Shown: piece after piece, positions 284-59,069 of the stretch | Position numbering within the stretch: position 1 is the first letter of the stretch | How the letters are laid out: each line of letters starts with the position of its first letter | IMG/VR virus record: IMGVR_UViG_3300033153_007277 | Location: 6,208 to 70,207 of that record | Strand: one strand, 5' to 3' | Length of the DNA: 64,000 nt | Origin: a virus | The notes under the pieces: generated by a model | What the model was told of the DNA's origin: nothing | The model's database searches: none | The model's input: the letters and a program-made list of their open reading frames with translations, nothing else | Position numbers and translations under genes: made by a program

Positions 284-2084
284 ATTTAGAGAACTAGGAA
301 TCGATTTGAAAGGCAGGACTTCGGGACAGATTAAAACTCTTTGCCCCAATTGTTCTCACCTCAGAAAGAAAAATTCCAAAGAACCATGTCTGTCCGTTAA
401 TATTGACGAAGGAACTTACAACTGCCATCATTGTCAGGCTTTCTCTGGAGGAATAAACGATAACCGTCCAGTCTACAAAAGACCCGACGACAGTAGAATG
501 GTTAGCCCTACCAGCCAGCTATTCGATCACTTCAGAAAAAGAGGTATCAGCAGGGAGGTTGTCCAGGCTAATGATATTTCCTCTTCAGATTCGGGATTAA
601 TTGTTTTTCCGTACAAGAGGAGAGGTGAGTTAATTAACTTTAAAGTTAAGTCGTTCGATAAAAAGAGGATGATGCAAGCTCCAGAAGCTGAGGCTATCAT
701 GTTCAATTACGATAGGTGTATTGGTGAAAAAGAGATCATAATTTGCGAAGGGGAAGAAGATTCTATGGTTTGGGAGATGGCAGGAATCACCTACCACACT
801 TCAGTAAACCAAGGTGCCCCCAACGAAAACGACACCAACATCGATAAGAAACTCCAATGCGTGGACAATTGCTTTGAGATGTTCGAAGCTGCTGATACAA
901 TTTATTTAGGTGCTGATAACGATGCTAATGGTCGTAGATTGAATAAGGAGTTGGCTAGAAGGTTTGGGGCTGAGAAATGTAAGATAATCGATTACGGGAT
1001 CTATAAAGATGCCAATGAAGTATTATTGAACGAAGGTCCAAAGGAACTCCTGAGAATGAAGAAAGACGCTAAGGATGTGCCAGTAAGTGGTATATTCAAC
1101 GCTGACGACATGAGAGGTTCAATGCTCGATAGATACCGTAATGGTAAACCTAGAGGAACTACAACTCATATTAAAGAGATTGATCCAGCATGGACATGGA
1201 AGACTGGAGAAGTTACAACATGGACCGGATACAACAACGAAGGTAAGTCTCAGTTCTTAGAGTATTTAGCAATAGCTAAAGCTTATTGGGACGGATGGAA
1301 GGGGGCTTGGTTTTCTCCTGAGAATACTCCAGTGGAAGATTTCTTCGATGAGATTATTGAGATGTTCGTAGGAAAGTCATGTGACAGGCATTATAGTAGC
1401 TCCAGTCATTATATGAATCAGATGGAGTATGAAGCTGGAATTGATTTTGTGAATAAGCATTTTTTCAATATCATGCCAGACTTAGATTTTACTATTGATA
1501 ATTTATTTGATAAGGCTAGATACTTGGTAAAAAAGAAAGGGATTAGGATTTTAGTAATAGATCCTTACAACTGGGTAGAACATCAAATGAAGCCAGGAGA
1601 ACGAGAAGACTTATATATCTCAAGATTTATGGCACAACTGAAGAACTTTGCTAAAGTAAATGACTTGTCAGTTCATTTAGTAGCCCACCAGACAACCCCA
1701 TCAAAGGATCAGTCAGGAAAATACTATAAACCATCTAAGTATAGAATAAAAGGAGGGGGAACATTTTCGGATAAAACCGATAACGTAAACTTTGTATGGC
1801 GGCCAAACCTTGCTATCGATCATAAAGATAACGAGACTATATTTGGTAGTCAGAAAATTAAGAAACAGAAATTAGTAGGTATTCCTCAAGACATAATGGG
1901 AATAACCTATGACTTGAAATCAAGTAGATATTTATTCAACGGAAAAGATCCGTTCCGAGCCATTGATGAAGATAGGCTGGGGGTTCAAGCAGAAATCAAT
2001 GACGATCCATTCGGGGCAATTCAACCGAACATGGCGTTTGATGATGAAGATGAGCCTGAATTTTGGAGCCAAATAAATGATTGA
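276..2084 (+). CDS. Primase-helicase (Zn-binding domain + TOPRIM + DnaB-like helicase; T7 gp4/Twinkle type)
   Basis: CPNC...CHHC zinc finger, TOPRIM CEGEED and DNDANG, Walker A TGYNNEGKS, Walker B ILVIDP, VHLVAH motif. Confidence 0.93.
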   Translation: MDKFRELGIDLKGRTSGQIKTLCPNCSHLRKKNSKEPCLSVNIDEGTYNCHHCQAFSGGINDNRPVYKRPDDSRMVSPTSQLFDHFRKRGISREVVQANDISSSDSGLIVFPYKRRGELINFKVKSFDKKRMMQAPEAEAIMFNYDRCIGEKEIIICEGEEDSMVWEMAGITYHTSVNQGAPNENDTNIDKKLQCVDNCFEMFEAADTIYLGADNDANGRRLNKELARRFGAEKCKIIDYGIYKDANEVLLNEGPKELLRMKKDAKDVPVSGIFNADDMRGSMLDRYRNGKPRGTTTHIKEIDPAWTWKTGEVTTWTGYNNEGKSQFLEYLAIAKAYWDGWKGAWFSPENTPVEDFFDEIIEMFVGKSCDRHYSSSSHYMNQMEYEAGIDFVNKHFFNIMPDLDFTIDNLFDKARYLVKKKGIRILVIDPYNWVEHQMKPGEREDLYISRFMAQLKNFAKVNDLSVHLVAHQTTPSKDQSGKYYKPSKYRIKGGGTFSDKTDNVNFVWRPNLAIDHKDNETIFGSQKIKKQKLVGIPQDIMGITYDLKSSRYLFNGKDPFRAIDEDRLGVQAEINDDPFGAIQPNMAFDDEDEPEFWSQIND

Positions 2085-41260: not shown

Positions 41261-43471
41261 CTATTGTTGTTGATTTTTTCTATCTTCTCTTTCGTTTTTA
41301 GCCCCTTCCTTAAGTAGGATTGATTCAGTTGCATGATCTCTGTCTAATTGCTTATTAGCATTTTCGTTATCAACCATTGCTTGCTGACTATCGACAGCCA
41401 TCTGCTGTTGCTGAGCTGCTTGCTGTTGCATGATTTGATTTTGCTGTGCCATCATGTCTTGTTGGGCATTAGCTGCCTGAGATTTCTCTGCTTGGAACTC
41501 TCTCATTGATTTAGCTATCATATCTGCATCAGCTCTTCCGAATAAGTTAGCGAATCTGAATTGGTCAATTAATCCTGCTTGAACAAGAGTAAACAGTAAT
41601 TGATTACCAGCTTGAATGGCAGATTTCTCGCCTTCAGCTCTTTCAATAAATATTTTAAACTCTTCAAGAGCAGTATCCTCAGTAAGGATTATATTTTTCA
41701 TTCCCCTATCTCCAGTGGCGATTGCCAATCTTCTAGGGTTATCGACATATATTCTTTTACCAACAGTAGCGATGTGCTGGTTGGCTTGCTTTAATATAGA
41801 TGTAAGTGCCCAATAAAAAGGTTCTTGAACTATAGATCCTCTTTGGATTTGAGATTCTATAACCCCAACAAGTTGGTCACTACCTCCTTGAGTACCTGTC
41901 ATTGCTTCATTAATACCCGTACTGTTTTGGACACCAGCCATAGTCTCTCTCATTATATTGAAAAGATTCATGGTTCCGGCCCCAATATTGCTTCCGTATT
42001 CACCAACTGAATTTTGAACAGAACCTGTTCTTGTGGTGTCAACAAATATAGGTTTAGATTTATTAACATTTCTCATTATAGTCTCCTCTCCATCTTGAGG
42101 ATCTACAGCGTCCTTAGCTATAACCGTTCCGCTTCCTCTAGAGTTGTTGATTTGAGACTCAGCAACTGATTTAAGACGGTTAATAAACCTTTGCGGATTA
42201 ATGGCATCATCTAACGGAGAAAGAACCTCTCCTTTGTCGTATGTCCATGTGTAGCATTTGTATGGAAATTGAACATTTGAAGGGCTCAATGCCTGTTTCT
42301 CTTGGTATTTAACTTCTCCGTATTCTAAAACTATATCACCTCTTCCAGATGCTGATCCTATCTCTTCTCTTGGAATAAAAATACAATACCTCAATATATC
42401 AACGTATATCTTATCCTTCTTCCTTTTGCCCATCTTCTTTTTATCCTTCTCAGTCGGTGGGTCAATAATATCTTTGTCAGTGTATTTAGATTCTTCATGA
42501 TTTATCCTAGTGTAGAATGGATAATCATAAGGATCCAATACCCAAGCATATTCTTGTTTCTCTGAATCTTTCCAATAGGTTTCATACACAGGGATCTTTG
42601 ATGTGGATGCCGTGTAATAATTATTGATTATTTTATGAATATCTAAAGAGCCATTAGTAGAATGATTTTCTAAAGCTAACCTGTCCTCTGCAGATATGTT
42701 TTGATACTTCTCAAATAAGGTTGGAGTGTCCATGTAATACCAGTCACCCATAAACTCAGAGTCACTAAGATCTGGTTTTTTAGCAGTCATGTCCCAGAAG
42801 AAAAACAAAGGATCCAATGCTTCACCCATGTACCTTCCATTTTGCTCATACCCTTTATAAATTCCAAGTCCAGATATAGACAAATGCCTAGTTATTTGAA
42901 CTTTTAATTCTTCCATGTCAATCTCTTTATTGACAAACTCAAGTAGGAAGTTAATATCTTCTTCATGAGTATCGATCCAAGAGTTTTCAAAAATCTCTTC
43001 GGTCTCTATTGGTGTTTTACCTAGGGGTATTCTATCTCTAATTACTTCGTTAAATTCCGGAACAGCCATTGATACTGCCTCATAGAATTTAAGTCGTTTT
43101 AATTCTTTTTCTCTTTGGTTTATAGCGAAGTCAGATGTAGCTTCAGCTTTAGCGTTGTAGGTTATTCTTATGGCATTACCAACATATTGGTTAACCATTG
43201 GACGGATAATATTCTCGGTCATTTTTAACCTGTTACGAATATCTCCAGATTCATCTAAAAAGAATGCTTCTAAATCCTCTTCAAAAATCCATTGACCATC
43301 TCCACCTTTATAGAAGCTCCAGTTGACTAATGTTTTCGTAACAAACCTTCTGTAAAGAGAATTATTGATGGTTTGTAGACACCATCTGCCAAACTTAACG
43401 TGATAGTCTTCGTTTTTCTTGTCGCTTAACCTGTTAGGTCTTTGTTGGTTTGTCTGTAGAAATAGTCCCAT
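41261..43471 (-). CDS. portal protein
   Basis: 736 aa; N.IRP.V...VG, D...PQ..IN, TG.NEA..G motifs; Gln-rich barrel tail typical of podovirus portals. Confidence 0.85.
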   Translation of the reverse strand: MGLFLQTNQQRPNRLSDKKNEDYHVKFGRWCLQTINNSLYRRFVTKTLVNWSFYKGGDGQWIFEEDLEAFFLDESGDIRNRLKMTENIIRPMVNQYVGNAIRITYNAKAEATSDFAINQREKELKRLKFYEAVSMAVPEFNEVIRDRIPLGKTPIETEEIFENSWIDTHEEDINFLLEFVNKEIDMEELKVQITRHLSISGLGIYKGYEQNGRYMGEALDPLFFFWDMTAKKPDLSDSEFMGDWYYMDTPTLFEKYQNISAEDRLALENHSTNGSLDIHKIINNYYTASTSKIPVYETYWKDSEKQEYAWVLDPYDYPFYTRINHEESKYTDKDIIDPPTEKDKKKMGKRKKDKIYVDILRYCIFIPREEIGSASGRGDIVLEYGEVKYQEKQALSPSNVQFPYKCYTWTYDKGEVLSPLDDAINPQRFINRLKSVAESQINNSRGSGTVIAKDAVDPQDGEETIMRNVNKSKPIFVDTTRTGSVQNSVGEYGSNIGAGTMNLFNIMRETMAGVQNSTGINEAMTGTQGGSDQLVGVIESQIQRGSIVQEPFYWALTSILKQANQHIATVGKRIYVDNPRRLAIATGDRGMKNIILTEDTALEEFKIFIERAEGEKSAIQAGNQLLFTLVQAGLIDQFRFANLFGRADADMIAKSMREFQAEKSQAANAQQDMMAQQNQIMQQQAAQQQQMAVDSQQAMVDNENANKQLDRDHATESILLKEGAKNEREDRKNQQQ

Positions 43472-44055
43472 TAGTCTTTAAGTCTATCAGTGTGCTCAGA
43501 TAAGTTAGTTAACACAATTCCTGTTTTATTTTTCTTTTTGAGTTTTACGCCATAACCACTTTCCATTCGGGAAATTAATTCTGGCATCTCAGAAGAAATT
43601 TTAATCGACAGTTCGGCATATTTCTTTTTACCGTCAGCATCCAACTTCATTGCTGTTTCCTCATCTTCATTTAAAACTACTAAGCCATTAAGCATGTTAA
43701 AGATGTACTCATCCATCCATTTAGCTTGAAGCCTATATGTTGGAGTAAATGACTTAAACCTACTAACTCCAGCAACTATCTTGTCTGGAGGGTTCATTGC
43801 TAAAACTTCTTTTACAACTTTGTCGTATTCTCTTGCTCTATCGTCATAACAAGCTGAAACTGCTGCTTCAACTTTAGCTGTTCCTTTTAACTTACTTTTA
43901 GCTAATGGACTGGTAGAGTTTCCGAGGTACCAACATAATTTAACCTCTCTAACAGTTAAACTATCAAACTCACTAAAAGCCTTGAGTTCAGGATAGTCTT
44001 TCAACATATCACTGCCTGAAGGCTCGAACATAGTTAAGTCAAAGTCTTTACTCAT
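43471..44055 (-). CDS. hypothetical protein
   Basis: 194 aa, coupled to portal start. Confidence 0.65.
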   Translation of the reverse strand: MSKDFDLTMFEPSGSDMLKDYPELKAFSEFDSLTVREVKLCWYLGNSTSPLAKSKLKGTAKVEAAVSACYDDRAREYDKVVKEVLAMNPPDKIVAGVSRFKSFTPTYRLQAKWMDEYIFNMLNGLVVLNEDEETAMKLDADGKKKYAELSIKISSEMPELISRMESGYGVKLKKKNKTGIVLTNLSEHTDRLKD

Positions 44056-44228
44056 TAAAAGCTAACTTTTTTTCCTGTTTTTGGATCTACCATGCTAACA
44101 GTTCTCGTTTTAACCTTCTTTTTCTTTTTCTTTGCGTTTTTCTTCTCGTTCTTGTCACCAGGTCCACCTTCAGAGCGAACTCCGTGCTTAGCTAAAGAGT
44201 TTTGGGCATTTTCACTTGTATATAGCAT
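44055..44228 (-). CDS. small Lys-rich protein (57 aa, MLYTSENAQ...)
   Basis: Read manually; its stop overlaps the next ATG. Confidence 0.5.
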   Translation of the reverse strand: MLYTSENAQNSLAKHGVRSEGGPGDKNEKKNAKKKKKKVKTRTVSMVDPKTGKKVSF

Positions 44229-44245
44229 AATAATTATTTTTAGTT

Positions 44246-44273
44246 AAAATAGAGGGAGGTTGCAGCCTCCCTC
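44246..44273 (-). terminator. intrinsic terminator
   Basis: GAGGGAGGC/ACCTCCCTC hairpin then TATTTT on - strand. Confidence 0.7.
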
Positions 44274-44289
44274 ATTGATTAGTTAAAAC

Positions 44290-45063
44290 CTACAGTCCTA
44301 AGTAGTCAGCAGCTGGAGTGTGAGTTCCAGCCAATACTGCATCTAACTCAGTTTCAAAAGCAGCGTAGTTAGTAGCTCCTGTATCAGCGAAGATATATAC
44401 ATACTCATCTTTACGAGATTCCATTCCAGAAACACCTGAGTGCTTGTAATAGTGCTTGTAATCGATTTTCCAAGTAGTATATGTAGCTGTTGGGCTAGAT
44501 TGTGTTGGAGCGAATCCTTCAACGATTGCTGGAGTTCCTGCTGGAGCTACATAAGGAGTAACAACATTTTCAGTAACACCTGGTTCTTGTTCAGTTCTGA
44601 AGTCACCTTCATCAACAGAGTCAAGAGTTAATCTTAATTTAGCAGAAACAACAGTTGCTGTAACATCTGCGCTTGGATCAAGATTAATTCTGTCAGCCAT
44701 TAACTGAGCTAATTCAGTTGCTGATGGAGCCGAAGATCCAGTAGAAACAACATACTCTCTAATCGGAATTAACTGATTAGCTTCTTTTCCTCCACCATTG
44801 AAATCGATTCTTCCATCGATAATAACAGCAGTTCTGTACTGAGAATCACCAGCTAAAACAGCAGCAGCGAAATCATAATCCTTTACAGATACAGTTCCTG
44901 CAGCGTAAGCTGTTTTAGTCGAACCTTCTCCGTCAACTAACTTCACCTCTTCCAAGATGTCGACAGATCCGTCATTTAAACTTAATTTTCCTCCTGACAA
45001 TACAACGTCAGCGGCAGCAGCTTGAATAGTATTCAATACTGCTAAATCTTTTGGTACATGCAT
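44290..45063 (-). CDS. probable auxiliary capsid/decoration protein
   Basis: Ala/Thr/Val-rich; has its own promoter and terminator. Confidence 0.6.
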   Translation of the reverse strand: MHVPKDLAVLNTIQAAAADVVLSGGKLSLNDGSVDILEEVKLVDGEGSTKTAYAAGTVSVKDYDFAAAVLAGDSQYRTAVIIDGRIDFNGGGKEANQLIPIREYVVSTGSSAPSATELAQLMADRINLDPSADVTATVVSAKLRLTLDSVDEGDFRTEQEPGVTENVVTPYVAPAGTPAIVEGFAPTQSSPTATYTTWKIDYKHYYKHSGVSGMESRKDEYVYIFADTGATNYAAFETELDAVLAGTHTPAADYLGL

Positions 45064-45146
45064 GATAATTTTGTTTTGTACACAGATGGTTTATTTTCCA
45101 TCAGTGAAAGTTTATAAAAATAAAACTCTACACAGTGTAGATTCTA

Positions 45147-45154
45147 CAAATATA
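45147..45154 (-). promoter_or_regulatory. Bacteroidota -7 element
   Basis: TATATTTG right after the terminase stop. Confidence 0.55.
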
Positions 45155-45160
45155 TAAATT

Positions 45161-47230
45161 TTAACTTAAATACCTCTTTACCTCCCCTGTTTTAATATTA
45201 ACCTCAGCTTTTTTAAGCTCAAAATTAGTTTCTCTATTCTGAACATATCTGATTTCAAATTTCTTTGCTTTATCTCCTGTAACTAGTTGAGGCTGATATT
45301 TTGAGTGAGCTTTTGCATTGATATAAGCAAACACAGAAGAGAATATGGCATCATCAAAATCATACCTCATATCAGCAGCTTGGAAACGAGTCTGCCTACC
45401 TGTAGTTGATTTCAAATCTTTTTCTACAAATGTTTTTAGCTGCAGGAACACCCATGGAATAAAGATATTAGGAGCGTATGACTCCATCATTTCTATTATC
45501 TGATTAGTTATCTTTCCAGCTGTATTGGCTCTATTGGCAATACCCCACCAAGAACTAGAAGGAGTCTGTAGCCACGGAGGAAGAGCTTTATTAGGAACCT
45601 GCCTTCTTCCGAATCCTGTCATGTCTTCGATGTCTTGATAGTTTGCTCCAATATTACTTTCTATAAGTTCCGGAACTCCCATTCTTTTTTCCCTATCGTA
45701 GTAAATTCCCTGGAGAATACATTGCAGATAACACTCCTTGTAATCTCTAATTCTCCAAAATACTACGCTAGATATAGTGTTCATTTCAGCATCCCATATA
45801 GCTCCAGACATCTTAGAATGCCCAGTTTCTGAGTTGATGGGGTCAATCCCTTGATAATACCTCCATTTCCAGATTTCTTTTGAAGGATCTGGTGGATGTT
45901 TAAATATACAAGCTGTAGTTCTTTCATCTTCCATTCCGGAAGAGGGAACCCATATAGCGTCCTTTATCCTGAACTCATAATGACCATCTGGAGTTGGAGA
46001 AGTAGTGTCGTATATCGGTTCGAAGTAACCATACTGTATTTGGTCGTTGCCTTTTAAATTATAAATTCTGTTAAGATGACTATTACATTCATCAAGAGGA
46101 ATCAAGGTTTTTGCATCCCTTGAGAACATGTCATCGATGGTTATTGGGTAGTGCTGATGGAACTTAACTTTATGTTTAGACCCTTTGGAATAGTATGCTC
46201 TTTTTTCAGATTCATATATCGCTTTTGTCACACCGTTTCTAGCGTATGCATCAAAGAATAATGGTATTATACCATATTTAAAATCTCTTTCTCTCCACGA
46301 CTTTAAAGTTGCCTTAAATTCAAGTTCGAAGGCAGCCCCACCTTTTTTCATTTCTCCACCTGTACCCCAAGCAAAAAGCTGTCTTCTGATTTTCATTTTA
46401 CCATCAGCTGGATCGAAGAAGAACAGTGTTGGACGCCCCTCTGTAATCATCTCAGAGAACACATCTCCTTCGAATAATCCAATCTCATCAACGAATGTTA
46501 CCTGTGGAGATCCACCGTTAATTGCATCTACAGCTGGAGTACAAACCTCAATACGAGATGAAGCTCCATCAATTTCTGCTGTTTTTCTATCTCTCTCTTC
46601 AAGCGATAATGTAGTTGCAGAGAAGTTGTGGGCCTTATGCCTTAACCATTTTGGAATGGATTTACCGAACCCCCATTGGATTTTATCTCTAAATATCTCC
46701 TCCCCTTTATCTTTACTGTGAGTAACAAACTTAGCGTAATAACTATTATGGAAGTTAATTGCTGACTGAGCTATAAGACCCATGGTTGTGGTAAAACCAA
46801 CCTGTCTTGCCTTACCGATTATACATGAATATCCACAATCGAAAAAGAATACTATAAGCTCCTGAGCTTCCCAAGCCTTGTAGTCGATAAAACCCGAAGA
46901 CACATCACCTTCTTTTATTTTCCCGTATTTGTTACAGAAGTAAAGTGAATTTTCCCTACACCTGTAATATTCCTGAATAATGTAATCTCCCTGCTCTTCT
47001 TCGGTATTGTAATTTAGAATATCATCGTTCTCTTCAATCCACTGCTTCGCCTGTTCTCTATACAGATCGAACGGCTTGTATTGAAGTTTATTTCTCCATC
47101 CTTTATTGATTGAATCCACCCACCTAACGAAGGATTTTGGATAATCCATCGGCTCATGAGAAGGCATCCATTCGGACGTTTTTATTTTCCTTGGTTTACT
47201 GGGCTCGGTGTCTGGGAAAGGTAAACTCAT
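45161..47230 (-). CDS. terL: terminase large subunit
   Basis: Walker A GKARQVGFTT, Walker B TFVDEIG, RNase H GIDP, LIESN, DD.I. Confidence 0.9.
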   Translation of the reverse strand: MSLPFPDTEPSKPRKIKTSEWMPSHEPMDYPKSFVRWVDSINKGWRNKLQYKPFDLYREQAKQWIEENDDILNYNTEEEQGDYIIQEYYRCRENSLYFCNKYGKIKEGDVSSGFIDYKAWEAQELIVFFFDCGYSCIIGKARQVGFTTTMGLIAQSAINFHNSYYAKFVTHSKDKGEEIFRDKIQWGFGKSIPKWLRHKAHNFSATTLSLEERDRKTAEIDGASSRIEVCTPAVDAINGGSPQVTFVDEIGLFEGDVFSEMITEGRPTLFFFDPADGKMKIRRQLFAWGTGGEMKKGGAAFELEFKATLKSWRERDFKYGIIPLFFDAYARNGVTKAIYESEKRAYYSKGSKHKVKFHQHYPITIDDMFSRDAKTLIPLDECNSHLNRIYNLKGNDQIQYGYFEPIYDTTSPTPDGHYEFRIKDAIWVPSSGMEDERTTACIFKHPPDPSKEIWKWRYYQGIDPINSETGHSKMSGAIWDAEMNTISSVVFWRIRDYKECYLQCILQGIYYDREKRMGVPELIESNIGANYQDIEDMTGFGRRQVPNKALPPWLQTPSSSWWGIANRANTAGKITNQIIEMMESYAPNIFIPWVFLQLKTFVEKDLKSTTGRQTRFQAADMRYDFDDAIFSSVFAYINAKAHSKYQPQLVTGDKAKKFEIRYVQNRETNFELKKAEVNIKTGEVKRYLS

Positions 47231-51025: not shown

Positions 51026-51028
51026 AAT

Positions 51029-51196
51029 TTATTTTTCAATTATTTTTACCATTATTGCGGTTGCCCTCACATCACCTTGATGAACTGTCTCACTGTAAGA
51101 TTTTATCACAAAACCTTTTTTGCCATTTTCATTTAATGCATCTTGGAGATCTTCGAGTTTGTCGGTGTGTATTACGATATGTTCGGCTTCTTTCAT
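51029..51196 (-). CDS. small protein (55 aa), DUF4177-like
   Basis: Read manually: L...LNE.G..GF motif. Confidence 0.5.
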   Translation of the reverse strand: MKEAEHIVIHTDKLEDLQDALNENGKKGFVIKSYSETVHQGDVRATAIMVKIIEK

Positions 51197-51270
51197 AATT
51201 TCAATCTAAAAAGAATTAGGTGGGTTTTTTTAAGTTTGGCGTCCCACCTTCTTCCCTATCTTACTCGTTA

Positions 51271-51346
51271 GAACGATTAGCAGGATTCGAACCTAATACG
51301 AACTATTTCTAGATCAGCCATCACCAACTCGGCATCTCTAATCGTT
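51271..51346 (-). ncRNA. tRNA-like RNA with the anticodon arm capped by a GAAA tetraloop
   Basis: AACGATTAG/CTAATCGTT stem; D arm GCC-GAGTTGGTGAT-GGC; T arm TAGG-TTCGAAT-CCTG. Confidence 0.6.
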
Positions 51347-51458
51347 ACGCTCGTCGTTTCCGAGCTGTCATACAACCTCCCTATGTTGTAATCGTGACAT
51401 GGTTACTGCTTATATTGAAAAAGGCATTCTAGTTACCATGTAAACCCATTCGCCTTTG

Positions 51459-51541
51459 TGCTAGGGGGATGATTCGAACATCCAACCTGTAGGTCAATTT
51501 TACTGCTTCCTACCGCTCTTACCTGCTTGAGCTACCCACGC
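51459..51541 (-). ncRNA. tRNA-like RNA with an enlarged (15-nt) anticodon loop
   Basis: D arm GCTC/GAGC; anticodon stem GTAGG/CCTAC; T arm GGATG-TTCGAAT-CATCC; acceptor GCGTGGG/CCCTAGC with two mismatches. Confidence 0.7.
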
Positions 51542-51625
51542 AATTTCCCAGTCTTTCCTGAGTGTCATATCTGCCCTGAAAGGTGTTTCGGATTAATCCA
51601 ACTCCCTATGCCTACTCATGTAGCT

Positions 51626-51910
51626 CGATAAGCGACCCGACTCTTACGGGTTATCGTTTAATGAGTGGGGGATTATCGTTTCCCCCAGTACGTTCTACGC
51701 TGCAACTCTAAGCTGCGGTGTAAAAAGGTTTATAACTTTTGCAGTTATATTTATCAATCTAAAGTTCATTACCCTTATCTCGCTGTCAAATCCAGGTCAC
51801 CCCCATATATCCACCAGAGGTTTGATAGTTCCTAACTCTGGCCCATTGGAAAATGGTAGTGGAGGTGGGGGAAATCGAATCCCCGTCCAAACAAGTAGCT
51901 AATAACAAAT
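51626..51910 (-). ncRNA. ssrA: circularly permuted (two-piece) tmRNA
   Basis: Acceptor piece ~51910-51860 (TGGAC, T arm GGGGA-TTCGATT-TCCCC, CACCTCC-A) precedes the coding piece starting GGGGGTG-ACCTGGATTTGAC at 51804; G3-U70; tag frame 51742-51695 AKVINLFTPQLRVAA*; outer ends approximate. Confidence 0.88.
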
Positions 51911-51998
51911 TGTGCCATGCACTAGATTAATGTTTTTAAATGTAAATAAAATTAGATCAACTTACATGCTATCGTGGCAAGGCTAATTGTATTTACCA

Positions 51999-52014
51999 AT
52001 ATGTTAAAGAACTA
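51999..52014 (-). promoter_or_regulatory. boxA-like antitermination site (leftward)
   Basis: TAGTTCTTTAACATAT. Confidence 0.55.
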
Positions 52015-52211
52015 ACGAGGTTCTCCTGCTACTAACTTATTGTTTTCATTAATGATTCGACTGTCCATAAACTCATAAATCCTTTCGGTGCTTTTCCAAC
52101 TATCTTTTACAAAGCATCAAACAGCGTTGCTTAAACTTGATCTCATGAAACCAAGATATGGCCTCCCTCATTAACTATTCAATAAATCAAAGAACCTCTT
52201 TTCTATGCTTG

Positions 52212-52367
52212 CAGTGCAAACAGGATTTGAACCTATGGACCCTTTCGGTAGTTGCTTCCCTACTCCGGGTCAGTAGTTGTTATCCTTGAGCAACAAATAA
52301 AGAAGTTTACTCTTTATCAATCATTTGGATTAGACCACCGCTTTCAACCATACTTAGCTATTGCACT
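52212..52367 (-). ncRNA. tRNA-like RNA (Ser-like scaffold) with a 56-nt structured insert in place of the anticodon loop
   Basis: AGTGCAA/TTGCACT-G acceptor; D arm GCT/AGC with GG; stem GTGGT/ACTAC; long variable arm GACCC/GGGTC; T arm ATAGG-TTCAAAT-CCTGT. Confidence 0.7.
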
Positions 52368-52401
52368 ATGACAATATTGCATCTCTACAACAAAGCCATT
52401 G

Positions 52402-52432
52402 CAAATGTAAACAAATATCTGAAAGTAACAAA
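52402..52432 (-). promoter_or_regulatory. Bacteroidota sigma-A promoter driving the RNA cluster leftward
   Basis: TTTG-N19-TACATTTG, a full consensus match. Confidence 0.7.
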
Positions 52433-52680
52433 AGAAAAACCAACTGTTTACATAACAACCCCCACTTTTATTCAATCAAACAACACATACCCAACCAATT
52501 ACAAACCCCCCCTATAAAGTATTTAATCTATAACACAAAGAATCCTTAATATAGATATTTATGAAGACTCCGGAACATAGCCTAAGTTATTGTTCTTCGC
52601 CCCCACCAAGCTCTGATCTATTCAATGGACCTTGGGTGGCAAAATGTAATAATTAAATCGTATGTGGCACTTACATAATA

Positions 52681-52731
52681 TACTTTTATTTACTTTACTA
52701 TACTTTACTTTACTTGCATTGCGAACGCATT
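52681..52731. repeat. TACTT pentamer run plus GCATTG repeat (origin-like)
   Basis: tacttttatttactttactatactttactttactt-gcattgcgaacgcattg. Confidence 0.55.
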
Positions 52732-53550
52732 GGCTACCTATCCATCACCCATATAGGTAATCTATGGGTACCCATTAAGTACCTATTCCCTCCCCATGTA
52801 CGGGTACCTCATATATAAACACCCCCACCCCTTTTAACTTCTTGATTATCAAATTGTTATAAGTGCCATATTCTATCTGGAGAAAAAGTATTGATGAAAT
52901 ATCAGGGATAATACTACTGGGGGTAATCCGTATCCGTGGGGGTAGTATATAATACAATAGGCCCCCACCCCTTTTCAAACCGAAACCCCCAACAACTTAA
53001 CCTCCTAAAACCCAAATCCTTAACTATCTTTACTCTTTTACCCCGTAACCCCTTTGGGAGGGGCTACTCTCTTGAGGGTCACTTAGTTAGCTGAGTATTC
53101 ATTGCAGAGCTTCGCCTCCCAAGGCGGGGCGGGGTGCTCTTTGTCAGGGGCAAAAACCTACCCCCCAGCCCCATGACCTATTCATCCATTACCTTAATAC
53201 ACTGAGTTACAACACATTGCCCCGAATGGGTATCCAATGCTAACCTATTAGTAGCCCACCTTTTACCCATAACATCGGGCCTATTGCATTGTATTATATC
53301 TATATATTATATCTATATAGAGAGTGGACACACCTTTAGGGGGTTGGTACTAATCACTACAGCCCAGTGATACCAACACATTCACACATTCAATTTGTTT
53401 CTCTCAGCATTTAGCCTGATGTTTACAATGTCGACAGGCAAACGAGCCAACAGACATACACACTGACAAGCACATGACACGAGCATTACATGTGTACCTT
53501 TTCACTCACATCTACACAGTGAGAGTTTAACACAGATTAAACGAGGTTGC

Positions 53551-53566
53551 TAGTTCTTTGACATAT
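53551..53566 (+). promoter_or_regulatory. boxA-like antitermination site (rightward)
   Basis: TAGTTCTTTGACATAT; 15/16 identical to the leftward copy. Confidence 0.55.
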
Positions 53567-53700
53567 GAAGTTGTAAAACGAAGGGGTGCTAACAAACCCT
53601 AAAAAGAAAACCCAAGTGGGGGGAAAAGAGTACCACTTTAAACAGACAAAAGACTACGGTGACCAGTGAATAAAGTAACTGGATACGTAGCAAGATTATA

Positions 53701-53800
53701 CAGCTATGAAGTGTTAATAGAGTGACGCAAGGATGGCAACCTTAAAAACTAAACCATGAAGTGTTAACAGAGTTACGCCCAGTTGGTAACTGGTAAAACT
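53701..53800 (+). repeat. two tandem 50-nt units with a covarying hairpin
   Basis: ATGAAGTGTTAAYAGAGTKACGC-stem-WTGGYAA-stem-WAAAACT, twice. Confidence 0.75.
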
Positions 53801-54584: not shown

Positions 54585-55418
54585 ATGAAAAAGGTATTTA
54601 CAAGCTCATACGATGTGATACATCTATTTGCACAAAGAAGTCAAGACGAAGCAAGAGTTTCAAACAGAAGCGTATATTTTAACAACGAAACAAAGATTTA
54701 TTCTTATGGTTCGCATTATTTGTTAGGTGAGTTTTTAGATGCCAACACAATAATGATAAATGATGACGGATATAGCGTTACAACATCAAAACATATCAGC
54801 CAAATAAAAGGAGCAACAAGCCAGTATAGACAGTTCTTAAAATCAGAGTCGGACATCGACAGAGTACATAGTCACGTAATAGCTAACAAAAACAGGTTAG
54901 CAAATGCAAGAAAGCCCGAAATGTACATAAACCCCATTTTAAATCTATGGTCCACGCTTAACACTTTCCTTGAATACAGCAAAGCAAAGAAGTACAAAAG
55001 CAATAAAAAATATCGAGAGATTAAATCTATTGTGAATGCCCTCAATAATGGTTCCGATGACTTCAAAGAGAAATTGAGACTTGCAGCCATAAAAGAAGCG
55101 AAAGCTCAAAAGAGAAAAGACGCGAAAGAACTAGTAGAAAAACTAGAGAAATTCAACAACTATGAAATCAATTTCTTTAGAGTTGGAAAGGAGGACTACC
55201 TGAGACTATCACAGGATGGTGAAAGAGTGGAAACTTCCCAACATGTAAGCGTTAAGCGAGAGAATGCAAAACTATTGTATCAAATGATCGAAAGAGGTAT
55301 TGAAATAAAAGGCAAGCATATCGAAAACTATGTAGTTACCAGTATAAACGGTACATTGAAAATTGGATGCCATAGTATAAATATTGAGAGCATGCATAAA
55401 ATAGGCAAATCTCTGTAG
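54585..55418 (+). CDS. conserved early phage protein of unknown function
   Basis: IYSYG.HY, YSVTTSKH and IGCH motifs. Confidence 0.75.
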   Translation: MKKVFTSSYDVIHLFAQRSQDEARVSNRSVYFNNETKIYSYGSHYLLGEFLDANTIMINDDGYSVTTSKHISQIKGATSQYRQFLKSESDIDRVHSHVIANKNRLANARKPEMYINPILNLWSTLNTFLEYSKAKKYKSNKKYREIKSIVNALNNGSDDFKEKLRLAAIKEAKAQKRKDAKELVEKLEKFNNYEINFFRVGKEDYLRLSQDGERVETSQHVSVKRENAKLLYQMIERGIEIKGKHIENYVVTSINGTLKIGCHSINIESMHKIGKSL

Positions 55419-55499
55419 TCGACTAAGCGACTCTAAACCACATTAAGCTTAGTGCGTCCCTCATTGCGAGGGGGTTGTATAAACTAAAACACATATAAA

Positions 55500-58880: not shown

Positions 58881-59069
58881 GATGGAATGGCGGAATTGGA
58901 AGACGCTGATTCTAATAAGAGTAGATTGCAAATTGTTCTTCGGCATTTGGCAACAAGTGTGACATATACGGAAGAACCTCAGACGGGTCCATGCTTGAGT
59001 CCTGTCGCTTACAGAAAGGTGTGCATTAGATAACTTACTCATTTGCAGGTTCGAATCCTGCTTCCATCA
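58881..59069 (+). ncRNA. tRNA-like RNA (Leu-like scaffold) with a 138-nt structured domain replacing the anticodon and variable arms
   Basis: GATGGAA/TTCCATC-A acceptor; TGGCGGAATTGGAAGACGC D arm; GCAGG-TTCGAAT-CCTGC T arm. Confidence 0.75.

What the first reader, a model, noticed from the sequence alone, without database searches (positions are those of the whole stretch)
51626..51910. Circularly permuted two-piece tmRNA encoded by a Bacteroidota phage
Seen (- strand, transcription order): acceptor piece ...TTTGTTATT-AGCTA-CTTGTT-TGGAC-GGGGA-TTCGATT-TCCCC-CACCTCC-A (ends 51860; CCA not encoded directly). Next is a 55-nt intervening segment (51859-51805) with hairpins CCATT/AATGG and CCAGAG/CTCTGG. 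Then the coding piece GGGGGTG-ACCTGGATTTGAC-AGCGAG... from 51804. The pieces pair: acceptor GGGGGTG/CACCTCC with G3-U70 and A73 (Ala identity), P2a AGCGAG/CTTGTT, P2b GGTAATGAA/TTTGTTATT. Established: permuted ssrA is known from Alphaproteobacteria, some Cyanobacteria and some Betaproteobacteria, while Bacteroidota ssrA is, to my knowledge, one-piece. Inference: an independent permutation event in a phage. It cannot be an att-site remnant, because both halves and the tag frame are present.
Basis: partly seen in the sequence, partly recalled or inferred. Interest (0 to 1): 0.88.

Follow-up and report, generated by a model that had tools for sequence, protein, structure and literature searches.

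The report
Two-piece tmRNA gene, Bacteroidota-phage lineage
This phage carries a real, stripped-down gene for the ribosome-rescue RNA (tmRNA) written in swapped order, and it belongs to a small family found in phages of Bacteroidota that seems to have arisen separately from the three textbook groups of such swapped genes.

Summary
ARAGORN calls a permuted tmRNA at 51604-51949 (-) with tag AKVINLFTPQLRVAA. Rfam RF04321 scores 71.7 bits against a cut-off of 47.

The window is a complete 70.2 kb phage genome with terminal repeats.

Both halves of the tRNA-like domain match one-piece tmRNAs of Bacteroidota, best Marinilabiliaceae: 28/30 and 34/39 identical, and every stem difference is compensated. 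The two signature scans returned 78/80 and 80/80 Bacteroidota titles.

It fits none of the subtype models. beta_tmRNA scores 47 against 84, and alpha and cyano score lower.

It is not a singleton. I found 11 further distinct genes with the same architecture: no pseudoknots, no encoded CCA, related tags. Among them are cultured Maribacter phage Panino, Chryseobacterium phage MA9V-3 and a crAss-like phage. The split fold covaries: 95.8% of cells pair and 0/500 shuffles reach the score.

None of 80 portal-related loci carries the gene, so it moves between phages.

Phage-borne permuted tmRNAs are already published, and two family members are deposited simply as "tmRNA". I found no paper describing this lineage. 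This scan noted the same kind before on other DNA (e1-5869850).

The parts
51604..51949 (-). Whole permuted tmRNA gene as delimited by ARAGORN. The true transcript ends are unknown.
   Evidence: ARAGORN tmRNA*. RF04321 covers 51695-51907 at 71.7 bits.
51923..51931 (-). Leader of the acceptor piece, ATTAATCTA. It is the proposed 3' strand of a distal intermolecular helix (P2c) that pairs with 51761-51753.
   Evidence: RNAcofold of the two pieces predicts this 9-bp helix. It rests on energy only. Analogous distal helices are predicted in the other members in the same call.
51912..51922 (-). Small hairpin GTGC-ATG-GCAC between P2c and P2b.
   Evidence: Cofold; sequence.
51901..51909 (-). P2b 3' strand TTTGTTATT. 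It pairs with GGTAATGAA at 51773-51765: 9 pairs, 4 of them G-U.
Evidence: Not tested by covariation.
51890..51895 (-). P2a 3' strand CTTGTT.
   Evidence: Identical to the Marinilabiliaceae one-piece tmRNAs. The helix covaries in the family: 4 of 6 pairs change on both sides.
51868..51884 (-). T arm: GGGGA, canonical T loop TTCGATT, TCCCC.
   Evidence: 100% of cells paired, and 4 of 5 pairs change on both sides in 12 sequences. Two pairs are compensated relative to the closest host genes.
51860..51867 (-). Acceptor 3' strand CACCTCC plus discriminator A (51860). C at 51859 follows, but CCA is not encoded.
   Evidence: The acceptor stem pairs in 100% of cells, G3-U70 is kept in 12/12, and the C after the discriminator is invariant in 12/12.
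51805..51859 (-). 55-nt intervening spacer with two hairpins, presumed to be removed during maturation.
   Evidence: Fold at -13.9 kcal/mol. The family's spacers are 22-71 nt long and not alignable.
51798..51804 (-). Acceptor 5' strand GGGGGTG. This is the 5' end of the coding piece and the presumed RNase P site.
   Evidence: G5 is compensated by C in the 3' strand relative to the host C5-G pair.
51785..51797 (-). D-loop analogue ACCTGGATTTGAC.
   Evidence: Identical to the Marinilabiliaceae one-piece tmRNAs. RF04321 alignment.
51753..51784 (-). 5' strands of P2a (AGCGAG 51784-51779), P2b (GGTAATGAA 51773-51765) and P2c (TAGATTGAT 51761-51753). No pseudoknot 1 lies between P2 and the tag.
   Evidence: The RF04321 alignment deletes the model's hairpin at this place.
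51695..51742 (-). Tag reading frame: resume codon GCA, 15 codons, stop TAG. It reads AKVINLFTPQLRVAA.
   Evidence: ARAGORN ('Tag not identified'). Related tags occur in family members.
51614..51686 (-). Two hairpins 3' of the tag: GGGGG/CCCCC at 51686-51667, and ACTCAT...ATGAGT at 51666-51614, which encloses CGATAA/TTATCG and CCCG/CGGG. No T-run terminator follows.
   Evidence: Fold. No terminator-like site in 51200-52500.

Best explanation
This is a genuine, selected gene for a minimal two-piece tmRNA. It belongs to a lineage carried by phages of Bacteroidota.

Proposed mechanism:
- One transcript is made on the - strand, possibly together with the neighbouring tRNA-like RNAs.
- It folds so that the 3' strand of the acceptor stem (51867-51861) pairs across a 55-nt spacer with the 5' strand (51804-51798).
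- Host RNase P cuts 5' of G at 51804. A host tRNA 3'-end nuclease trims after the discriminator A (51860) or the conserved C that follows. Host CCA-adding enzyme completes the CCA end. The spacer is lost.
- The two pieces stay together through the 7-bp acceptor stem and a long split P2 helix (P2a, P2b, P2c).
- Host AlaRS charges the RNA with alanine (G3-U70, A73). Host SmpB and EF-Tu bring it to stalled ribosomes.
- Translation resumes at GCA (51742) and appends AKVINLFTPQLRVAA, ending at TAG.

Shown here: the gene order, the fold with covariation, homology to Bacteroidota tmRNA, family membership, and absence of phage-encoded helper proteins. Inferred: transcription, processing, charging, tagging, and the benefit to the phage. 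I suppose the benefit is extra ribosome-rescue capacity during infection, with a phage-specific tag that keeps an Ala-Ala end but replaces the host's GENNY-type front part.
For: Detection:
- ARAGORN tmRNA*.
- RF04321 at 71.7 bits against 47.

Bacteroidota origin:
- The 5' 30 nt are 28/30 identical and the 3' 39 nt 34/39 identical to one-piece tmRNAs of Geofilum and Marinilabiliaceae MAGs.
- All three stem differences are compensated: C5-G to G5-C, and in the T stem A-U to G-C and G-C to A-U.
- The 5' signature hits 120+ genome contigs, 78/80 listed titles being Bacteroidota.
- The independent 3' signature hits 120+, with 80/80 listed titles Bacteroidota.
- The resume context ...TAACT|G.. resembles the host's ...TTAACT|GGC.

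Family: 11 further distinct genes have the same order, no CCA and no pseudoknots.
- Complete phage G461, 68.1 bits, tag GKTIQMFNQPLRMVA.
- G460.
- Contigs L409, L414, L410, L413, L415 and L418, 65-75 bits.
- Maribacter phage Panino 62.2, Chryseobacterium phage MA9V-3 64.7, and crAss-like cr53_1 50.3 bits.

Selection:
- 95.8% of cells pair, 9 pairs change on both sides, and 0/500 shuffles reach the score; slid controls give 50-59%.
- G3-U70 is kept in 12/12.
- In the close pair L409/L414 the RNA gene is 97.4% identical and the downstream flank 73.8%.

Dependence on the host: no SmpB, CCA-adding enzyme, integrase or resolvase domain in the phage.

Host type: 0/73 ORFs has an SD core against a 9.2% background.
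Against: - No expression or processing data. No sequencing run could be listed, so neither the two mature pieces nor the assembly could be checked on reads.
- The RF04321 score of 71.7 bits is far below that of cellular permuted genes: 115-165 bits in five genomes and mostly 117-170 in Alphaproteobacteria.
- All pseudoknots, PK1 included, are absent. PK1 matters in E. coli tmRNA (recalled).
- CCA is not encoded.
- One family tag ends in MVA and one in QFA rather than AA.
- MFE cofolding of the window's pieces recovered the acceptor stem, T arm and P2c, but not P2a or P2b as drawn.
- P2a pairs in only 87.5% of cells, because two members are shifted by one base.
- The Bacteroides-type promoter box TAnnTTTG is not enriched in the window: 71 matches against 77 expected. 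None lies directly upstream of the gene.
- The covarying TLD stems could partly reflect each phage copying its own host's TLD rather than selection within the family.
- My set of Bacteroidota tmRNAs was chosen by likeness to this gene, so the 'closest host family' is only suggestive.
Confidence: 0.78

Rival explanations
1. It is an ordinary member of one of the three known permuted lineages (alpha-, beta- or cyano-type), picked up from such a host or its phages as in OM43 phage Melnitz. Its likeness to Bacteroidota would then be convergence or partial gene conversion.
For: - beta_tmRNA is the best of the clan's models at this place (47 bits, E 1e-12). Its alignment also matches a stretch of the leader and the hairpin after the tag.
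- Real beta-type genes share the canonical T loop, a GGGGGTG acceptor strand and a GCATGG hexamer in the leader.
- A cyano-type gene does occur in a viral contig found with a similar pattern (L417, RF01851 at 104 bits).
- Portal relatives include marine samples.
Against: - 47 bits is well below the beta cut-off of 84, and the alpha and cyano models score lower still.
- True members score above their cut-offs. L417 reaches 104 against 70 on RF01851, and four beta-type genes score 156-166 bits on RF04321.
- The alpha type has a different T loop (GGCGGTA) and ANDN tags.
- The TLD halves score 55 against Bacteroidota one-piece genes, but 39 against beta-type and 26 against alpha-type genes.
- Both signatures are confined to Bacteroidota among the listed genome hits.
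- The GCATGG hexamer is absent from the other family members.
- Three family members sit in phages with Bacteroidota hosts or lineage.
Confidence: 0.06
2. The RNA is made and folds as drawn, but it acts as a decoy. Its tRNA-like domain would soak up host SmpB, AlaRS or EF-Tu and shut down host trans-translation, as proposed for the TLD-only RNA of mycobacteriophage DS6A. It would not rescue ribosomes itself.
For: - The phage has no SmpB of its own.
- All pseudoknots are lost.
- The TLD is kept almost identical to the host's while the rest is reduced.
- TLD-only molecules inhibit tmRNA according to PMC4131195 and PMC11915505 (passages).
Against: - A tag frame with a host-like resume context, a stop codon and a hydrophobic, mostly Ala-Ala end is kept across the family. 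Lengths are 10-17 codons, and 8 of 10 distinct complete tags end in AA.
- The frame is fully conserved between L409 and L414.
- A decoy would not need P2c, the single-stranded resume region or an open frame.
Confidence: 0.1
3. It is not a working gene. It would be a relic of recombination with the host ssrA (an attP core plus captured 5' end after faulty excision), or an assembly artefact that reorders the halves.
For: - Phages often integrate into ssrA and carry its 3' end. The Panino authors discuss this for their phage, which has an integrase (PMC11590407, passages).
- The 3' piece of the window gene is host-like over 39 nt.
- Reads could not be examined.
- The gene is absent from all 80 portal-related loci.
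Against: - No tyrosine or serine recombinase domain in this complete genome.
- The two halves have changed together, with three compensated pairs against the host.
- The same order recurs in 11 other distinct genes from different samples and unrelated phages. G461 shares 0/95 ORFs with this phage.
- The fold covaries.
- The RNA is better conserved than its flank.

Such a recombination event may still be how the permutation first arose.
Confidence: 0.03

Closest known systems
Circularly permuted (two-piece) tmRNA genes of Alphaproteobacteria, a betaproteobacterial group and some Cyanobacteria (Rfam RF01849, RF01850, RF01851, merged in RF04321; Keiler 2000 and Sharkady & Williams 2004 as cited in PMC9004378 and PMC11915505)
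   Same: - Gene order: acceptor piece, spacer, coding piece.
- Acceptor stem formed across the spacer, with G3-U70 and A73.
- The break lies downstream of the tag frame.
- It passes RF04321.
   Different: - It fails all three subtype models.
- The TLD is of Bacteroidota type.
- It has no pseudoknot at all.
- CCA is not encoded in 12/12 members. The alpha examples read encode it, and the five beta-type or related genes show CCA, CCT or CCC.
- The tags are unrelated to the ANDN and ANDE types.
- So far it has been seen only in phage or unbinned contigs, not in the 151 plus 401 Bacteroidota genomes sampled.
Phage-encoded two-piece tmRNAs of marine phages (OM43 phage Melnitz, pelagimyophages, cyanophages; PMC9004378, passages read)
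   Same: A phage carries a complete permuted ssrA with a tag frame, the gene is sporadic within a phage group, and it depends on host factors.
   Different: - Those are alpha- or cyano-type and match their host lineages or a former host.
- Melnitz adds a glutamine riboswitch.
- blastn of this gene against 50,697 deposited phage records finds nothing.
tmRNA genes of Maribacter phage Panino (PP540027.1) and Chryseobacterium phage MA9V-3 (PV245944.1), annotated 'transfer-messenger RNA SsrA', and an unannotated one in crAss-like phage cr53_1 (NC_055889.1)
   Same: Same family: permuted order, Bacteroidota-type TLD, no CCA, no pseudoknots. RF04321 gives 62.2, 64.7 and 50.3 bits. Panino's tag GKVMNVSFAPTVRQFA resembles this one.
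   Different: - The phages are different; this phage's portal finds no deposited relative.
- Spacers are 39, 60 and 71 nt.
- The records and the Panino paper do not say that the gene is permuted.
One-piece tmRNA of Bacteroidota (e.g. Geofilum rubicundum, Marinilabiliaceae MAGs) and the one-piece tmRNA of Cellulophaga phage Calle_1 (MT732432.1)
   Same: The acceptor stem, D-loop analogue, P2a, T arm and resume context are nearly identical to the Marinilabiliaceae genes.
   Different: - Those are collinear genes of about 400 nt with PK1-PK4, an encoded CCA and GENNYALAA-type tags.
- Calle's gene is a standard RF00023 match at 86.6 bits and is not permuted.
TLD-only tmRNA-like RNA of mycobacteriophage DS6A (PMC4131195, PMC11915505, passages)
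   Same: A phage-borne, strongly reduced tmRNA derivative that relies on host SmpB.
   Different: DS6A has little more than the TLD and no tag frame. This gene keeps a conserved frame and is split in two.

Membership tests
tmRNA (functional class) | tRNA-like domain: 7-bp acceptor stem with G3-U70 and discriminator A73 (alanine identity), and a T arm with a canonical T loop | tested here: met
   Sequence and ARAGORN TLD halves. Acceptor and T stems pair in 100% of cells, and G-U at position 3:70 is kept in 12/12.
tmRNA (functional class) | Tag reading frame with a resume codon in a single-stranded A-rich context, a stop codon and a hydrophobic Ala-rich C-terminus | tested here: met
   GCA...TAG at 51742-51695, reading AKVINLFTPQLRVAA. 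The context AAATATAACT resembles the host's.
tmRNA (functional class) | Pseudoknots PK1-PK4 (PK1 between P2 and the tag) | tested here: not met
   Only 22 nt lie between P2b and the resume codon, and 9 of them pair with the acceptor leader. The RF04321 alignment deletes the model's hairpin there. Only plain hairpins are predicted after the tag. Reduced pseudoknot sets are known in two-piece and organellar tmRNAs (recalled), so this does not exclude function.
tmRNA (functional class) | Aminoacylation by AlaRS, binding of SmpB and EF-Tu, tagging on ribosomes | not testable with these tools
   No SmpB gene in the phage, so host SmpB would have to serve.
tmRNA_permuted (Rfam RF04321) | Score at or above the gathering cut-off of 47 bits over the full model, with the 3' TLD half upstream of the 5' half | tested here: met
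   71.7 bits, model 1-213/213.
beta_tmRNA (Rfam RF01850) | Score at or above 84 bits | tested here: not met
   47 bits.
alpha_tmRNA (RF01849) and cyano_tmRNA (RF01851) | Score at or above 50 and 70 bits respectively; alpha-type reduced T loop | tested here: not met
   - No gathering-level hit.
- At the E-value threshold they were outscored by the 47-bit beta hit and dropped.
- The T loop is canonical TTCGATT, whereas alpha examples have GGCGGTA.
- Positive control: L417 passes RF01851 at 104 bits.
Standard one-piece tmRNA (Rfam RF00023) | Collinear 5' TLD, MLD, pseudoknots, 3' TLD; gathering-level match | tested here: not met
   No RF00023 hit at gathering level in the window, and the gene order is swapped. 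Positive control: phage Calle_1 at 86.6 bits.
Bacteroidota-phage pseudoknot-free two-piece tmRNA (family defined here) | - Permuted order
- TLD of Bacteroidota type
- C but not CCA after the discriminator
- No pseudoknot
- Split P2 reaching close to the resume codon
- Tag of 10-17 residues, often starting G/A-K | tested here: met
   Twelve distinct members were aligned.

The most novel reading that the evidence does not exclude
This would be a fourth, independent origin of the two-piece tmRNA gene. It would derive from a Bacteroidota one-piece ssrA, live only in phages and be exchanged among unrelated phages, from crAss-like to marine podoviruses. It is the most reduced tag-encoding tmRNA known, with no pseudoknots. 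A helix formed with the other piece's leader stands where PK1 should be. Its phage-specific tag family (G/A-K-x-I/L-...-L-R-x-A-A) would redirect the fate of rescued proteins during infection instead of simply copying the host's degradation tag.
Probability: 0.4. Interest if true: 0.75.

Novelty: new variant of a known kind. Interest (0 to 1): 0.58.

Why it matters
- Gene permutation of tmRNA is a textbook oddity thought to have happened in three bacterial clades and in mitochondria. A further origin, traceable almost base for base to a living one-piece relative, gives a clean case for studying how such a permutation arises. One possible route is ssrA-targeted recombination.
- The family works, if it works, without any pseudoknot and without an encoded CCA. 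It therefore sets a natural lower limit on what a tag-encoding tmRNA needs.
- Two members sit in cultured phage-host pairs (Panino on Maribacter, MA9V-3 on Chryseobacterium). Questions about phage control of ribosome rescue and the meaning of a phage-specific tag can be tested directly there.
- For annotation: ARAGORN missed 4 of the 12 members (L413, L415, G460, cr53_1). GenBank labels do not say that the genes are permuted.

Tried and rejected
- Close relatives of the phage as carriers. The portal protein (41261-43471, -) has 587 homologs. The single-sequence scan found no viral locus. The alignment-based scan gave 105, of which 80 were kept. None of the 80 has a tmRNA by ARAGORN or by a relaxed regex whose positive controls were 10/10. 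Not every locus reaches 10 kb upstream of the portal.
- Deposited relatives of the phage: none by tblastn of the portal. None in named genome contigs.
- Deposited relatives of the RNA. blastn of the window gene found nothing. The G460 and G461 genes gave only short T-arm hits.
- First narrow DNA patterns found nothing in viral contigs or metagenome contigs.
- The generic pattern for permuted genes in named genomes returned mostly noise. Only 2 of 120 loci passed my D-loop filter as true permuted genes.
- Weak RF04321 hits in 21 of 151 Bacteroidota genomes. The 10 fetched (L202-L211) each carry an ordinary one-piece tmRNA gene at or beside the hit.
- The four borderline hits (47.6-51.4 bits) in the Burkholderiales sample are one-piece genes too.
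- The apparent leader match to the beta model reduces to a GCATGG hexamer that the other family members lack.
- Cellulophaga phage Calle's published tmRNA is one-piece, not this family.
- The Bacteroides-type promoter box TAnnTTTG is not enriched. There is no convincing sigma-70 promoter or terminator around the gene.
- No RNA or DNA sequencing run was listed for the stretch.
- Papers. Seven word searches (of which 107 and 108 were for two phages) found no description of a permuted tmRNA in Bacteroidota phages. PMC516066 is not held.
- Supplements I could not see may bear on novelty: Table S2 of PMC11915505 (taxa of the 11,946 permuted and 79 phage sequences), Table S1 of PMC9004378 (the 53 two-piece phage tmRNAs) and SI file 7 of PMC8776804.
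- Two unpublished genomes (G185, G349) each contribute one count to the tallies. No other claim rests on them, and none of their sequence is given.
Full report
**What is there**

On the - strand at 51604-51949, ARAGORN reports one permuted tmRNA (tmRNA*):
- 3' TLD half at 51895-51859
- 5' TLD half at 51804-51774
- resume context at 51749-51732
- tag frame at 51742-51695, reading AKVINLFTPQLRVAA* ("Tag not identified")

Infernal with Rfam RF04321 (tmRNA_permuted) matches 51695-51907 at 71.7 bits (cut-off 47, E 8.6e-12, full model). CCA is not encoded: the discriminator A at 51860 is followed by CTA.

**The replicon**

The window is bases 6208-70207 of a 70,207-bp IMG/VR virus record with direct terminal repeats, rated 100% complete. 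I measured a 114-bp repeat. It encodes a portal, a large terminase and a primase-helicase.

The RNA gene lies in a 2.7-kb stretch (51026-53782) without ORFs of 100 aa or more. That stretch also holds several odd tRNA-like RNAs. No SmpB, CCA-adding enzyme, tyrosine integrase or serine recombinase domain was found in the whole genome.

**Which lineage**

The older subtype models do not accept the gene. beta_tmRNA gives 47 bits against a cut-off of 84, and the alpha and cyano models scored lower and were dropped by clan competition.

For scale:
- Five cellular permuted genes score 115-165 bits on RF04321.
- 146 of 151 sampled Alphaproteobacteria pass, mostly at 117-170 bits.
- 4 of 151 sampled Burkholderiales carry strong beta-type genes at 156-166 bits.
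- Alpha-type genes have a reduced T loop (GGCGGTA) and ANDN tags. The phage gene has a canonical TTCGATT loop.

I then asked where each half of the TLD occurs among one genome per species.
- The 5' signature (acceptor strand, D-loop analogue and start of P2a, with four free positions) hit at least 120 contigs. Of the 80 titles listed, 78 are Bacteroidota, one Chlorobiota and one an Eggerthellaceae bin.
- ARAGORN found 102 tmRNA genes in those 120 loci. All are standard one-piece genes, mostly with GENNYALAA-type tags.
- The 3' signature was not used to choose those loci. It runs from the P2a 3' strand to the acceptor strand, with the stem positions free. It also hit at least 120 contigs, and all 80 listed titles are Bacteroidota.

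The best matches to both halves are Marinilabiliaceae-type genes: Geofilum rubicundum and three MAGs.
- The 5' 30 nt match at 28 of 30 positions and the 3' 39 nt at 34 of 39.
- The three differences that fall on base pairs are all compensated. These are C5-G to G5-C in the acceptor stem, and A-U to G-C and G-C to A-U in the T stem.
- Likeness stops after P2. The host's PK1, tag and PK2-4 have no counterpart.
- The bases before the resume codon (...TAACT) are host-like.

Among the genomes searched, Bacteroidota themselves have no permuted gene. 0 of 151 pass RF04321, and the 10 weak hits I fetched each carry an ordinary one-piece gene at or beside the hit. 0 of 401 have the permuted pattern.

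**A family, not a singleton**

A pattern requiring the Bacteroidota-type TLD in swapped order found 2 viral contigs, 8 metagenome stretches and, with a shorter spacer, 2 more viral contigs.
- One of these, L417, is a clean cyano-type gene (RF01851, 104 bits) and was set aside.
- The rest pass only RF04321: L409 75.3, L415 73.1, L418 68.3, G461 68.1, L413 67.0, L410 65.0 and G460 48.3 bits. G460's gene is cut by its contig end.
- blastn with two of these genes then led to deposited phages: Chryseobacterium phage MA9V-3 at 64.7 bits and Maribacter phage Panino at 62.2 bits, both annotated only as "transfer-messenger RNA SsrA", and the Crassvirales genome cr53_1 at 50.3 bits, unannotated.

All 12 distinct genes share these features:
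- the swapped order, with a spacer of 22-71 nt
- an invariant C, but no CCA, after the discriminator
- no pseudoknot
- long intermolecular P2-type helices in cofolds

In most members a hairpin followed by a T run sits right after the stop codon (my own reading; the terminator scan was run only on the window). The window's gene has hairpins there but no T run.

The tags are related and form a series:
- GEQVELAMAA (L418)
- GETPVLQMWSTGLRAAA (L410)
- GKEVFMPQLELAA (L415, my reading)
- GKTLFMPQRLSLAA (L409 and L414)
- GKIINMVPMQARLAA (L413, my reading)
- GKTIQMFNQPLRMVA (G461)
- GKVMNVSFAPTVRQFA (Panino)
- GNVIDINKYVAKLEVAA (MA9V-3)
- GNTSYVMDYTGIAA (cr53_1, my reading)
- AKVINLFTPQLRVAA (this phage)

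**Selection on the split fold**

On the 12-sequence alignment the acceptor stem, T stem and P2a give the following counts:
- 95.8% of cells are paired.
- 9 pairs change on both sides, in 31 cells.
- The covariation score is 0.431 against 0.146 for shuffles, and 0 of 500 shuffles reach it.
- Pairing falls to 50-59% when the partners are slid by 1-3 columns.
- G3-U70 is kept in 12 of 12.
- P2a pairs in only 87.5% of cells, because two members are shifted by one base.

The 9-sequence version gave the same picture. In the close pair L409/L414 the RNA gene differs at 7 of 265 positions (97.4% identity, one compensated T-stem pair, identical tag frame). The downstream flank is 73.8% identical.

**Mobility and host**
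- G461 is a complete 69.4-kb phage whose tmRNA tag is clearly homologous to this one's. It shares no ORF with this phage by tblastn (0 of 95). G460 shares 3 of 95.
- None of the 80 loci around related portal genes (51-84% identity) has the gene. The gene is therefore an accessory gene exchanged among unrelated phages.
- Besides the TLD and the cultured members, SD avoidance supports a Bacteroidota host for this phage. 0 of 73 ORFs of 100 aa or more has an SD core at -18 to -5, against a 9.2% background. G461 (10/82) and G460 (8/52) sit at background.
- Against this, the Bacteroides-type TAnnTTTG box is not enriched in the window. Both G461 and G460 do have TATATTTG upstream of their genes.

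**How it probably works**

The steps below are inferred from the anatomy and from textbook tmRNA biology.
1. A precursor is cut by RNase P at G 51804 and by a tRNA 3' nuclease after A 51860 or the conserved C.
2. CCA is added by the host enzyme.
3. The pieces are held by the acceptor stem and by P2a (6 bp), P2b (9 bp) and P2c (9 bp, ATTAATCTA with TAGATTGAT).
4. Host AlaRS charges the RNA, and host SmpB and EF-Tu deliver it to stalled ribosomes.
5. The tag is added.

P2c puts the leader of the acceptor piece where PK1 normally sits.

**What is known already**
- Two-piece tmRNAs in phages are published. 53 of 133 unique phage tmRNA structures in a 2021 phage set were called two-piece, mostly marine, of alpha or cyano type (PMC9004378, passages).
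[quoted passage not shown] I read its Results section and some passages. Its taxon table is a supplement I could not open.
- The Panino paper mentions one SsrA gene and never uses the words "permuted" or "two-piece" (passages).
- The flavobacterial phage Calle's tmRNA is one-piece.
- The word searches found no description of this lineage.
I treat that as a lead, not as evidence.

**Verdict**

This is a real permuted tmRNA gene. It is a new variant of a known kind rather than something categorically new. Its interest lies in the apparently separate Bacteroidota-derived origin, the extreme reduction, the phage-specific tags, and the availability of cultured systems to test it.

Noticed in passing
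window 55417-55479 (+): Pistol ribozyme match, 58 bits against a cut-off of 34.5, full model. It abuts the end of the ORF at 54585-55418 in the early (+ strand) gene block.
   Followed up: no
window 51459-51541 (-): tRNA-like gene directly downstream of the tmRNA. RF00005 gives 40.5 bits, with a 15-nt loop in place of the 7-nt anticodon loop and two mismatched acceptor pairs. ARAGORN does not call it.
   Followed up: partly
window 52212-52367 (-) and 58881-59069 (+): Two further RF00005 hits (35.1 and 29.4 bits) with long insertions; the first has 82 nt where the anticodon arm should be. ARAGORN calls neither. With a weak tRNA-Sec-like hit at 51272-51346 (18 bits), they flank the tmRNA in a 2.7-kb stretch without ORFs of 100 aa or more.
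   Followed up: no
window, whole; genome G000: Complete avoidance of Shine-Dalgarno cores upstream of ORFs: 0 of 73 against a 9.2% background. Upstream regions are A/T-rich.
   Followed up: yes
window 51686-51626 (-): The 9-mer AAACGATAA occurs twice, once in the loop of the GGGGG/CCCCC hairpin and once as the 5' strand of the next hairpin. The downstream TTATCG could therefore pair with either, giving a possible pseudoknot or switch.
   Followed up: no
L003, L004, L012 at 508-582 (-), about 9.4 kb upstream of their portal genes: The relatives with 64% portal identity carry a tRNA that ARAGORN reports with a four-base anticodon (acaa), type undetermined.
   Followed up: no
L396/L399 (G460) 43870-45563: In this 45.6-kb viral record an array of 20 tRNA genes runs straight into the permuted tmRNA gene. 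The gene's tag frame runs off the contig end without a stop.
   Followed up: partly
L411, L412, L416 (one 165-kb metagenome contig): The G461-type tmRNA occurs three times, with identical flanks, in one 165,133-bp contig. This looks like a concatemeric assembly of the 69-kb phage.
   Followed up: no
L219 / L336 (Oxalobacteraceae MAG): A cellular permuted tmRNA (RF04321, 115 bits) with an unusually long 28-residue tag, AKSVYAKEFVADLKDRVGANGNCYQQAA. Its TLD is close to the phage family's but CCA is encoded.
   Followed up: no
L417 1411-1725 (+): A viral contig with a cyano-type permuted tmRNA (RF01851, 104 bits). It has only an 11-nt spacer and a 31-residue tag.
   Followed up: no
L543 (Maribacter phage Panino) 1102-1488: In the GenBank record the annotated tmRNA feature overlaps two annotated tRNA genes (Asp, Thr) and a 49-codon 'hypothetical protein' CDS on the opposite strand. 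That CDS lies inside the tmRNA and is probably spurious.
   Followed up: no
L398 1440-1200 (-) (G461): Directly downstream of G461's tmRNA terminator is a gene that, by my own reading, looks like 6-carboxytetrahydropterin synthase (QueD). It is preceded by a strong AGGAGG, although the genome as a whole does not use SD above background.
   Followed up: no
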